29,667 bases of DNA, taken from assembly GCA_938022485.1 (NCBI GenBank), contig CALIEE010000181.1, forward strand, positions 1-29,667, given 5' to 3'. A program made the position numbers and the translations under genes. Shown here in pieces: positions 8,029 through 8,300 of the stretch. Under the pieces are notes generated by a model. It saw nothing but the letters and a program-made list of their open reading frames with translations, did no database searches and was not told where the DNA came from. The DNA is from an uncultured bacterium (lineage in GTDB: Bacteria > Bdellovibrionota_C > UBA2361 > SZUA-149 > CALKYB01). Numbering within the stretch: the stretch's first letter is position 1; each line of letters begins with the position of its first letter.

Positions 8029-8101
8029 TGCCCAGGGGCGGATTTGAACCACCGACACGCGGATTTTCAGTCCGCTGCTCTACCAACTGAGCTACCTGGG
8101 C
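8029..8101 (-). tRNA. tRNA-Phe (GAA), CCA not encoded
   Basis: GCCCAGGTAGCTCAGTTGGTAGAGCAGCGGACTGAAAATCCGCGTGTCGGTGGTTCAAATCCGCCCCTGGGCA. Acceptor stem GCCCAGG/CCTGGGC, D arm, anticodon loop CTGAAAA, T loop GTTCAAATC. Followed by CAC, not CCA. Confidence 0.97.
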
Positions 8102-8300
8102 AAAAGATTACATCAAACCAACTTACGAACCTTTCTAACTTACCTACTTCAGCAGCGATCTGAAAATCAAGATTTTCAGTCCGCAATGAGGTCAAAACGC
8201 TGCAAGTTTTCGCGTTTTGGAAACTTAGCTCAACGTCTGGCAATTTCGACGACCGCTTTGCGGTCTTTCGAGCCAGACGTCCAACTGAGCTACCTGGGCA
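8083..8300. repeat. Perfect 20-bp direct repeat (8083-8102 and 8281-8300) corresponding to tRNA-Phe nt 1-19 plus one upstream base
   Basis: ccaactgagctacctgggca occurs twice, 198 bp apart. Confidence 0.97.
8151..8184. repeat. Palindrome built from tRNA-Phe anticodon-arm sequence
   Basis: AGCAGCGATCTGAAAATC-AA-GATTTTCAGTCCGC. The right arm is a 14-nt exact copy of the anticodon arm; the left arm is a 16/18 inverted copy. Confidence 0.9.

What the first reader, a model, noticed from the sequence alone, without database searches (positions are those of the whole stretch)
8083..8300. The 5' end of tRNA-Phe is duplicated exactly 198 bp upstream, bracketing a small hairpin-rich insert
Seen: a perfect 20-bp direct repeat covering tRNA nt 1-19 (acceptor 5' strand and D arm). 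Established: integrative elements usually leave a displaced 3' tRNA fragment downstream, and the E. coli tyrT 178-bp repeats also reuse the 3' end. A 5'-end copy upstream is the uncommon orientation. No integrase is nearby. Inference: either the scar or miniature remnant of an element that integrates at tRNA 5' ends, or a functional leader in which the upstream GCCCAGG competes for the 3' acceptor strand CCTGGGC and affects RNase P processing.
Basis: partly seen in the sequence, partly recalled or inferred. Interest (0 to 1): 0.66.

Follow-up and report, generated by a model that had tools for sequence, protein, structure and literature searches.

The report
Decayed tRNA-Phe twin split by hairpin repeat
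The repeated tRNA-Phe 5' end is real, and the 198 bases it brackets are most likely the wreck of a second, tandem tRNA-Phe gene that was split by a small hairpin repeat found about 5 to 10 times per genome in this marine Bdellovibrio-like genus; this is a tidy evolutionary curiosity, not a new kind of system.

Summary
A perfect 20-bp direct repeat (8083-8102 = 8281-8300) covers tRNA-Phe nt -1 to 19, and the stretch between the copies is hairpin-rich.

It is not a misassembly. An independent contig spans it without a difference, and two other species of the genus keep the same layout.

The insert is not random spacer. Read on the tRNA strand it is:
- tRNA nt 1-19;
- a roughly 90-nt two-hairpin module (M);
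- tRNA nt 27-40, turned into a 14-bp hairpin by a short inverted duplication;
- decayed remains of the rest of the tRNA.

In the sister species G001 the same unit still aligns collinearly with tRNA nt 27-74 and carries a copy of the 5' flank.

M is a genus-specific dispersed repeat, with 5, 5 and 10 copies in three genomes and none in 28 other genomes of the order. The same arrangement (5' copy, M, intact tRNA) occurs at tRNA-Arg(ACG) and tRNA-Arg(UCG), with empty alleles in sister species.

Best reading: a pseudogenised tandem tRNA paralog interrupted by M after nt 23, kept as a folded upstream leader.

The "competes for the acceptor strand" idea is not supported: the conserved predicted fold locks the copy up inside the leader.

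There is no RNA evidence. The scan had already noted related hairpin repeats elsewhere and read them as IS630-type miniature transposons.

The parts
8028..8101 (-). Intact tRNA-Phe(GAA), no encoded CCA. It is the only tRNA-Phe found in this 70%-complete genome.
   Evidence: ARAGORN; Rfam RF00005 at 72.9 bits; genome-wide ARAGORN list.
8281..8300 (-). Upstream copy of tRNA-Phe nt -1 to 19. I read it as the 5' remnant of a tandem paralog. In G001 the copy runs to nt 23.
   Evidence: Perfect 20-bp direct repeat with 8083-8102. Orthologous copies are in G002 (1 mismatch) and G001 (nt 1-23, 100%).
8194..8280 (-). Module M. It has an outer stem at 8272-8280 / 8233-8241 enclosing an inner hairpin (8242-8271), then a linker (8219-8232) that pairs back onto the D-arm copy, then a second hairpin at 8212-8218 / 8194-8200. 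It is a member of a genus-specific dispersed repeat.
   Evidence: Covariance model R1 scores the wider span 8188-8287 at 79.8 bits. There are 20 copies in 3 genomes and none in 28 other genomes of the order. Stems show compensatory changes.
8151..8184 (-). Remodelled anticodon arm of the pseudo-copy. tRNA nt 27-40 are exact (8184-8171), followed by TT and the inverted partner (8168-8155), which together give a 14-bp hairpin, then TGCT.
   Evidence: The hairpin is conserved in G002 and G001 with one change on both sides (helix 7). In G001 the sequence after it continues collinearly into tRNA nt 39-69.
8102..8150 (-). Tail: degenerate remains of the paralog's variable and T-arm region plus the spacer that abuts tRNA +1. 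Its first ~12 nt (8139-8150, with 8151-8154 of the preceding TGCT) close the leader's fold with the 5' copy.
   Evidence: Alignments. In G001 the last 22 nt resemble the native 5' flank at the same offset (p about 0.017).
8005..8021 (-). Trailer hairpin that is an inverted copy of the anticodon arm, starting 7 nt after the tRNA 3' end. It is not part of the insert but is part of the tRNA-derived debris at this locus.
   Evidence: nt 34-44 match in inverted orientation. The same feature lies downstream of tRNA-Phe in three genomes of other families, L012, L014 and L018.

Best explanation
The 198 bp between the two copies are what is left of a second tRNA-Phe gene that once lay in tandem, upstream of the functional one.

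That upstream copy was interrupted after nt 23 (TAGA | GC, the 3' strand of the D stem) by a roughly 90-nt two-hairpin module, M. M belongs to a repeat family dispersed through the genomes of this genus. The interrupted copy then decayed:
- Its anticodon arm was converted into a long hairpin by a short inverted duplication.
- Its T arm and acceptor 3' strand eroded.
- In the G000/G002 lineage four D-arm bases (TAGA) were lost, which is why the repeat ends at nt 19 here.

The functional tRNA downstream stayed intact.

Because the native upstream flank abuts the 5' copy (shown at the two tRNA-Arg loci), I infer that the remnant is transcribed as a long 5' leader of the pre-tRNA and removed by RNase P. 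I also infer that its tRNA-derived pieces are each locked into local hairpins, which would keep them from interfering with folding of the real tRNA.

Shown: the repeat, the homology of M to the dispersed repeat, the collinear tRNA remnants, the parallel loci and the empty alleles.
Inferred: the order of events, transcription, and any selective value of the fold.
For: (1) Architecture in three species.
- Searches show the 5' copy, M, nt 27-40, a hairpin, a tail and the tRNA in all three.

(2) Collinear tRNA remains after M.
- G001 unit A aligns with nt 27-74 (score 70; 0 of 2000 shuffles reach it).
- G001 unit B aligns through about nt 69 (p about 0.0025).
- The tRNA-Arg(UCG) unit of G002 aligns over nt 27-74 (p about 0.0025).
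- An att scar or a transposon would not carry these.

(3) Flank and trailer are duplicated in G001.
- The tail before the intact tRNA resembles the flank before unit B at the same offset (p about 0.017).
- Unit A repeats both flank and trailer.

(4) M is a dispersed repeat.
- Model R1 finds 5, 5 and 10 copies in G000, G001 and G002, and none in 28 other genomes of the order.
- Dispersed copies lie in 500-600-nt intergenic gaps without an adjacent transposase.

(5) The same arrangement occurs at other tRNAs.
- G000:C95 tRNA-Arg(ACG) has a 5' copy of nt 1-23 followed by M, 172 nt upstream.
- G002:C4 and G001:C289 show it at tRNA-Arg(UCG).
- Empty alleles exist at G002:C6, G001:C206 and G000:C311 with the same native flank.

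(6) tRNA-linked M copies form one clade (support 0.99).

(7) The predicted leader fold is conserved.
- 53 pairs; 94% of cells paired.
- 7 pairs changed on both sides.
- 0 of 500 shuffles reach this; slid controls give 26-44% paired.
Against: - In the window itself only nt 1-19 and 27-40 are clearly tRNA-derived. The rest of the 3' half is recognisable only by comparison with G001.
- Flank-versus-tail similarity is not significant in G000 or G002, nor at the Arg loci.
- At tRNA-Arg(ACG) the unit is present only in G000. That suggests a recent origin, yet its 3' half is already unrecognisable (not significant) while its 5' 23 nt are perfect. This fits an insertion with target duplication, or relocation of a whole unit, better than slow decay.
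- At the Arg loci the duplicated segment starts exactly at mature +1, which a random tandem duplication does not predict.
- Why the 5' copy stays identical while M diverges by 11-45% is not explained. Gene conversion or selection must be invoked.
- Compensatory changes in short-loop hairpins can also arise by template switching between the arms, without selection.
- There are no RNA data.
Confidence: 0.58

Rival explanations
1. This is a miniature mobile element. The whole unit (M, the middle part and the tail, about 150-180 bp) inserts into tRNA genes after nt 23 and duplicates nt 1-23 of the target, or integrates by a recombinase acting in trans. The tRNA therefore stays whole, and a displaced 5' fragment is left upstream.
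For: Filled and empty alleles differ cleanly. G000:C95 differs from G002:C6 by exactly 172 bp, that is 149 bp plus a second copy of nt 1-23, and the native flank abuts the 5' copy. The same holds for tRNA-Arg(UCG). The duplication starts at mature +1 and ends at nt 23 in three different tRNAs. The M of Arg(ACG) in G000 is sister to the M of Arg(UCG) in G002, and G000 lacks the Arg(UCG) unit, as if a whole unit had moved. Dispersed copies are also bracketed by 12-nt direct repeats. A 5' tRNA fragment displaced upstream by an integrated element is described in an archaeon (PMC3293823).
Against: The units contain collinear, target-matched remains of tRNA nt 27-74 after M. In G001 they also contain copies of flank and trailer. 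An inserted element would not bring these. No integrase lies on the contig, and no DDE_3 transposase is found in any of the three genomes. Target duplications of 19-23 bp are far longer than those of common transposons (my knowledge). The 12-nt repeats around dispersed copies are shared by several copies, so they belong to a larger repeated unit and are not fresh target duplications.
Confidence: 0.22
2. This is a functional structured leader or small RNA. The remnant has been co-opted, for example to time RNase P processing, to act as a stable RNA released from the pre-tRNA, or to compete for the acceptor 3' strand as the first reader's idea (b) proposes.
For: The predicted fold is conserved in three species with changes on both sides of 7 pairs, including a hairpin (helix 7) that is not part of the dispersed repeat. 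The 5' copy is far better conserved than its surroundings. The global optimum of the 273-nt RNA does pair the upstream copy with the tRNA 3' end and the leader with tRNA nt 23-40. Similar palindromised anticodon arms occur in the Phe and Arg(ACG) units.
Against: There is no Rfam match and no RNA evidence. The unit is dispensable at the Arg loci, where sister species carry empty alleles. It is found at only 2 of the 22 tRNA genes detected in this genome and in one genus only. The 5' copy of the Arg(UCG) unit in G002 has a disrupted D arm, though this lies next to a scaffold gap. The conserved fold sequesters the GCCCAGG copy rather than exposing it.
Confidence: 0.12
3. This is an assembly artefact or a neutral local duplication of no wider meaning.
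For: The genome is a fragmented MAG of 332 contigs. G002 has 100-N scaffold gaps right next to tRNA fragments.
Against: An independent contig spans the region with 0 differences. The layout is conserved in two other MAGs and recurs at two other tRNA loci.
Confidence: 0.02

Closest known systems
Tandem tRNA gene copies with pseudogenised members; the E. coli tyrT locus with its 178-bp repeats that each end in the tRNA-Tyr 3' end
   Same: Partial copies of a tRNA gene lie in direct orientation next to the functional gene. They are produced by local duplication or unequal recombination and are carried in the same transcription unit.
   Different: Here the reused piece is the 5' end, and it lies upstream. 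The copy is interrupted by a dispersed hairpin module at a fixed tRNA position, and the same arrangement recurs at three different tRNA genes.
Non-autonomous hairpin repeats (MITE, REP or BIME-like mosaics), including the IS630-type miniature transposons that earlier notes of this scan report in Bdellovibrio-like genomes (e1-1928188, e1-3326230; RUP of S. pneumoniae is named there)
   Same: M is short, non-coding, multi-copy, intergenic and made of covarying hairpins. In its dispersed form it is nested in TA-flanked inverted-repeat hairpins.
   Different: No TA or other short target duplication bounds M itself, and no cognate transposase was found. The tRNA-linked subfamily always sits after nt 23 of a tRNA copy. 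I know of no MITE for which this has been described.
Integrative elements in tRNA genes that leave a displaced tRNA fragment, including the 5' fragment of tRNA-Thr found 1.8 kb upstream of the gene in Caldiarchaeum subterraneum (PMC3293823)
   Same: A direct repeat made of part of the tRNA brackets foreign DNA, and the upstream 5' fragment is the uncommon orientation.
   Different: There is no recombinase gene, and the bracketed DNA is only 178 bp. It contains remains of the tRNA's own 3' half. In this same genus classical scars of the 3' type also exist.
Mobile non-canonical tRNA introns of Archaea (intron transposition in Thermoproteales, reviewed in PMC4090602 and PMC4033280)
   Same: Related short structured inserts sit at the same non-anticodon position in different tRNA genes.
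   Different: This is a bacterium. The interrupted copies are not intact genes, an uninterrupted tRNA lies next to each, and there is no evidence of splicing.

Membership tests
Integrase-type integrative element scar at a tRNA gene | A direct repeat consisting of part of the tRNA gene at both ends of the inserted DNA | tested here: met
   20 bp in the window and 23 bp in G001 and at tRNA-Arg(ACG).
Integrase-type integrative element scar at a tRNA gene | A tyrosine or serine recombinase gene within or beside the bracketed DNA | tested here: not met
   The bracketed DNA is 178 bp and has no conserved ORF. PF00589 matches lie on other contigs only.
Integrase-type integrative element scar at a tRNA gene | Bracketed DNA is foreign to the target gene | tested here: not met
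   After M the units carry collinear remains of tRNA nt 27-74.
Tandem gene duplicate turned pseudogene | The upstream unit is collinear with the whole gene | tested here: met
   Met clearly in G001 units A and B and in the Arg(UCG) unit. In the window only nt 1-19 and 27-40 are certain.
Tandem gene duplicate turned pseudogene | Flanking sequence is duplicated together with the gene | tested here: inconclusive
   The G001 flank and tail are similar at the same offset (p about 0.017), and its trailer is repeated. The similarity is not significant in G000, in G002 or at the Arg loci.
MITE or dispersed hairpin repeat (for module M) | Many dispersed copies in one genome, restricted to a lineage | tested here: met
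   5, 5 and 10 copies in three genomes and 0 in 28 other genomes of the order.
MITE or dispersed hairpin repeat (for module M) | Terminal inverted repeats with a short target-site duplication | tested here: inconclusive
   M's outer stem is an inverted repeat, but the bases outside it are not a consistent duplication. The enclosing TATAC-word hairpins look TA-flanked.
MITE or dispersed hairpin repeat (for module M) | A cognate transposase with matching ends | tested here: not met
   No DDE_3 in the three genomes. Y1_Tnp homologs are not flanked by M. MAGs are known to miss insertion sequences.
tRNA intron (group I, group II or archaeal type) | Interrupts an otherwise complete, functional tRNA gene and is removed from the transcript | tested here: not met
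   All interrupted copies are damaged, and each has an intact neighbour. There is no Rfam intron match. Splicing is not testable here.
T-box or other curated cis-regulatory leader | A match to a curated RNA family | tested here: not met
   An Rfam scan at E up to 10 finds only the tRNA and chance hits, and nothing for the dispersed units.

The most novel reading that the evidence does not exclude
M, or the whole unit, is a tRNA-gene-homing element that behaves like an intron. It enters tRNA genes at the junction of D stem and anticodon stem (after nt 23) and does so in a way that leaves or regenerates an intact tRNA with a duplicated 5' part. It then rides the tRNA promoter and RNase P cleavage to be expressed as a folded leader RNA. 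This would be a bacterial counterpart of archaeal tRNA-intron transposition, or a new way for a non-coding element to parasitise tRNA genes.
Probability: 0.15. Interest if true: 0.75.

Novelty: new variant of a known kind. Interest (0 to 1): 0.42.

Why it matters
It gives a clean, dated example of how tRNA loci collect debris: tandem copies, hairpin repeats, and palindromes that grow from existing stems. It shows that a 5' tRNA fragment upstream need not mean a 5'-integrating element.

The one unusual point is that related copies of one hairpin module sit at the same nucleotide of three different tRNA genes, with empty alleles in sister species. If that reflects targeting, it would be a new target preference for a bacterial non-coding repeat, and it would be worth a look whenever a member of this genus is cultured.

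For annotation, such units can be mistaken for att sites or for novel structured RNAs.

Tried and rejected
- **Rfam.** A scan of 7000-9500 and of six dispersed units found nothing beyond the tRNA.
- **Other copies in the genome.** A BLAST of 8102-8300 found none. The module was only found after using the G001 ortholog and a covariance model.
- **Metagenome pattern scans.** The leader palindrome gave 0 hits. The hairpin-2 pattern gave 10 unrelated hits without tRNAs.
- **Sequencing runs.** Only the source-like run holds the locus, and metatranscriptomes hold only the tRNA part, so there is no expression evidence.
- **Promoter and terminator scan of 7850-8560.** Nothing was found. My by-eye candidates are weak and I do not rely on them.
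- **Mobiliser search.** No integrase lies on the contig, there is no DDE_3 transposase, and the Y1_Tnp homolog in G002:C57 is not flanked by M.
- **Dispersed M copies carrying a tRNA D-arm remnant (a SINE-like origin).** No significant similarity was found; the best case has p about 0.06.
- **The reading "antisense guide to tRNA nt 23-40".** I dropped it after G001 showed that this arm is the natural 3' strand of the anticodon stem plus an 11-nt inverted duplication.
- **ORFs.** The 73-aa ORF at 8186-8407 (+) has no Pfam match. A 1-nt indel in G002 falls within the aligned stretch it covers, so I treat it as spurious, though I did not translate the G002 counterpart.

Full report
**1. The observation**

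tRNA-Phe(GAA) lies on the minus strand at 8101..8028. The repeat finder reports a direct repeat with 198-nt spacing, and its first 20 nt are identical (8083-8102 = 8281-8300). On the tRNA strand this is nt -1 to 19.

The stretch between the copies folds much better than shuffles (-71.7 kcal/mol, z = -4.96).

The same call shows more tRNA-derived pieces inside the insert:
- an exact direct copy of nt 27-40 (8171-8184);
- an inverted match to nt 23-40 (8151-8168);
- an inverted match to the D arm (8219-8241).

An independent Logan contig from run X1 covers 8073-8700 without a difference. Two other MAGs of the same genus keep the arrangement. These are G002, titled an uncultured Bdellovibrionales bacterium, and G001.

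No tyrosine recombinase lies on the contig.

**2. What the insert is made of**

I used the G001 ortholog as a query and then a covariance model built from ten copies. This showed that the two-hairpin core of the insert (module M) is a dispersed repeat. In the window the model match spans 8188-8287.
- G000, G001 and G002 have 5, 5 and 10 copies.
- The 28 other genomes of the order have none.

Dispersed copies sit in 500-600-nt intergenic gaps between ordinary genes, in either orientation, with no transposase beside them. They are nested in hairpins of the form TATAC-word ... word'-GTATA. Earlier notes of this scan read such hairpins as IS630-type miniature transposons. I did not verify that, and DDE_3 is absent from these three MAGs.

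M's stems show compensatory changes across copies. Rfam has no family for it.

**3. The rest of the insert is a decayed tRNA**

In G001 the locus holds three M-bearing units around the intact gene.
- Unit A lies downstream of the intact gene. It reads D arm nt 10-23, M, then nt 27-74 of tRNA-Phe almost intact, then a copy of the trailer (score 70, 0 of 2000 shuffles).
- Unit B is the ortholog of the window's insert. It reads nt 1-23, M and nt 27-40, followed by an 11-nt inverted duplicate of the anticodon loop. After that come recognisable remains of nt 39-69 (p about 0.0025) and 22 nt that resemble the native 5' flank at the same offset (p about 0.017).
- Unit C is a truncated piece: part of the D arm and the first part of M.

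The apparent "antisense copy of nt 23-40" in the window is therefore mostly the natural 3' strand of the anticodon stem, lengthened by a small inverted duplication. The window and G002 are simply more eroded, and they have lost TAGA (nt 20-23). That loss is why the repeat stops at nt 19 here.

**4. The same thing at other tRNA genes, with empty alleles**

Two of the 22 tRNA genes found in G000 have an upstream copy of their own 5' end: Phe and Arg(ACG).
- At G000:C95 the unit is nt 1-23, M and 59 further nt, 172 bp in all.
- The sister species G002 (C6) and G001 (C206) have the same native flank joined directly to the tRNA.
- tRNA-Arg(UCG) shows the reverse pattern. It is filled in G002 (C4) and G001 (C289) and empty in G000 (C311).
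- The Arg(UCG) unit still aligns with nt 27-74 of its own tRNA (p about 0.0025).

In every filled allele the native upstream flank abuts the 5' copy. The tRNA's original promoter region therefore lies upstream of the remnant.

tRNA-linked M copies form one clade apart from the dispersed ones (support 0.99). Within that clade, the M of Arg(ACG) in G000 is sister to the M of Arg(UCG) in G002. M therefore reached tRNA paralogs at the same position at least twice (Phe and Arg), and a unit may have moved between the two Arg loci.

**5. How it most likely works**

Origin, at about 0.6 confidence: a tandem tRNA-Phe paralog was interrupted by M after nt 23 and then decayed. Insertion into a redundant copy is the only kind that an essential single-copy tRNA could survive, which would explain why every M-bearing copy has an intact neighbour.

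Present state, inferred: the remnant is probably part of the pre-tRNA 5' leader.

The consensus fold of the three orthologous leaders has 53 pairs.
- 94% of cells are paired.
- 7 pairs changed on both sides.
- No shuffle of 500 reaches this, and slid controls give 26-44% paired.

The fold consists of a closing helix and three hairpins. The closing helix uses nt 1-11 of the 5' copy. The hairpins are M's outer stem extended onto the D-arm copy, M's second hairpin, and the palindromised anticodon arm. Each tRNA-derived piece is thus locked up locally.

I read this as insulation of the real tRNA's folding, not as competition for its acceptor strand. The competing fold appears only as the global optimum of the full RNA.

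Caveats:
- The structure was derived from the same three sequences on which it was counted.
- Arms of short-loop hairpins can be homogenised by template switching without selection.
- There is no RNA evidence at all.

**6. What does not fit**

- The Arg(ACG) unit exists only in G000, yet it has a perfect 5' copy and an unrecognisable 3' half.
- The duplicated segment starts exactly at mature +1 at the Arg loci.
- The filled and empty alleles differ cleanly by 172 bp.

These points favour the rival reading, an element that inserts with a long target duplication or a unit that relocates as a whole. I give that reading about 0.2. The two readings differ in the origin of each unit, not in what is present now.

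**7. Comparison and verdict**

The closest known things are:
- pseudogenised tandem tRNA copies, with the E. coli tyrT repeats as the mirror case at the 3' end (my knowledge);
- MITE-like hairpin repeats;
- displaced tRNA fragments left by integrative elements, including a 5' fragment in an archaeon (PMC3293823);
- at a distance, transposing archaeal tRNA introns (PMC4090602).

The unit fails the defining tests for an integrase scar, because it has no recombinase and the bracketed DNA is tRNA-derived. It also fails the tests for an intron, because the interrupted copies are broken.

I class it as a new variant of a known kind and of moderate interest. The fixed position of M in three tRNA genes is the one feature worth following up.

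Noticed in passing
window 8005-8021; also L012:8-24, L014:1477-1494, L018:1464-1475: An inverted copy of the tRNA-Phe anticodon arm lies in the trailer downstream of the tRNA: 5-7 nt after the 3' end in the window, L012 and L014, and about 28 nt in L018. It is present in genomes of other families of the order, so it is older than the upstream unit. It may be a 3' processing or termination hairpin.
   Followed up: partly
G000:C311:4107-4210 and 5850-5950; G000:C95:4405-4525; G002:C6:82540-82640; G001:C206:8660-8790: Partial 3' copies of tRNA-Arg, starting in or near the anticodon arm, each carry a conserved 65-nt hairpin insert in the variable/T-stem region. In C311 two such copies flank about 1.6 kb containing a 218-aa ORF, which looks like classical att-type scars of an integrative element.
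   Followed up: partly
G002:C3:34400-34900, C3:11700-12300, C15, C29, C42, C7, C12, C18; G000:C282, C139, C30: Dispersed M copies are nested in larger composite repeats. A hairpin of the form TATAC-word-N35-word'-GTATA is followed by a small hairpin, M, a promoter-like stretch and a second copy of word'-GTATA. The 7-8-nt word differs between subfamilies but stays matched among its copies within most units (C7 and C12 are imperfect).
   Followed up: partly
window 8330-8480: The intergenic block between the RDD-domain gene and the 5' copy aligns with G002 at 84% mean column identity and contains long near-identical runs, while the last ~50 nt next to the 5' copy (about 8300-8350) are poorly conserved. 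It contains a hairpin. It could hold the tRNA promoter or an unannotated RNA. The pattern scan found no promoter or terminator.
   Followed up: partly
L010:1330-1429 and L061:1401-1500 (G002): 100-N scaffold gaps lie exactly inside tRNA-fragment repeats and have the same bases on both sides. The G002 assembly is unreliable at these loci, including the odd D arm of the Arg(UCG) 5' copy.
   Followed up: no
G002:C57:6435-7376 (L068:1435-2376): A 313-aa ORF matches Y1_Tnp (IS200-like or REP-associated tyrosine transposase). Beside it are two identical 55-nt direct repeats with an inverted partner 1.1-1.3 kb away. It is unrelated in sequence to M.
   Followed up: partly
run X2, contig record 9 on window 8011-8123: A second marine metagenome from a different study holds a 122-nt contig covering the trailer, the tRNA and the first 22 nt of the tail with 3 differences. 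A close relative with the same tail therefore exists elsewhere.
   Followed up: no
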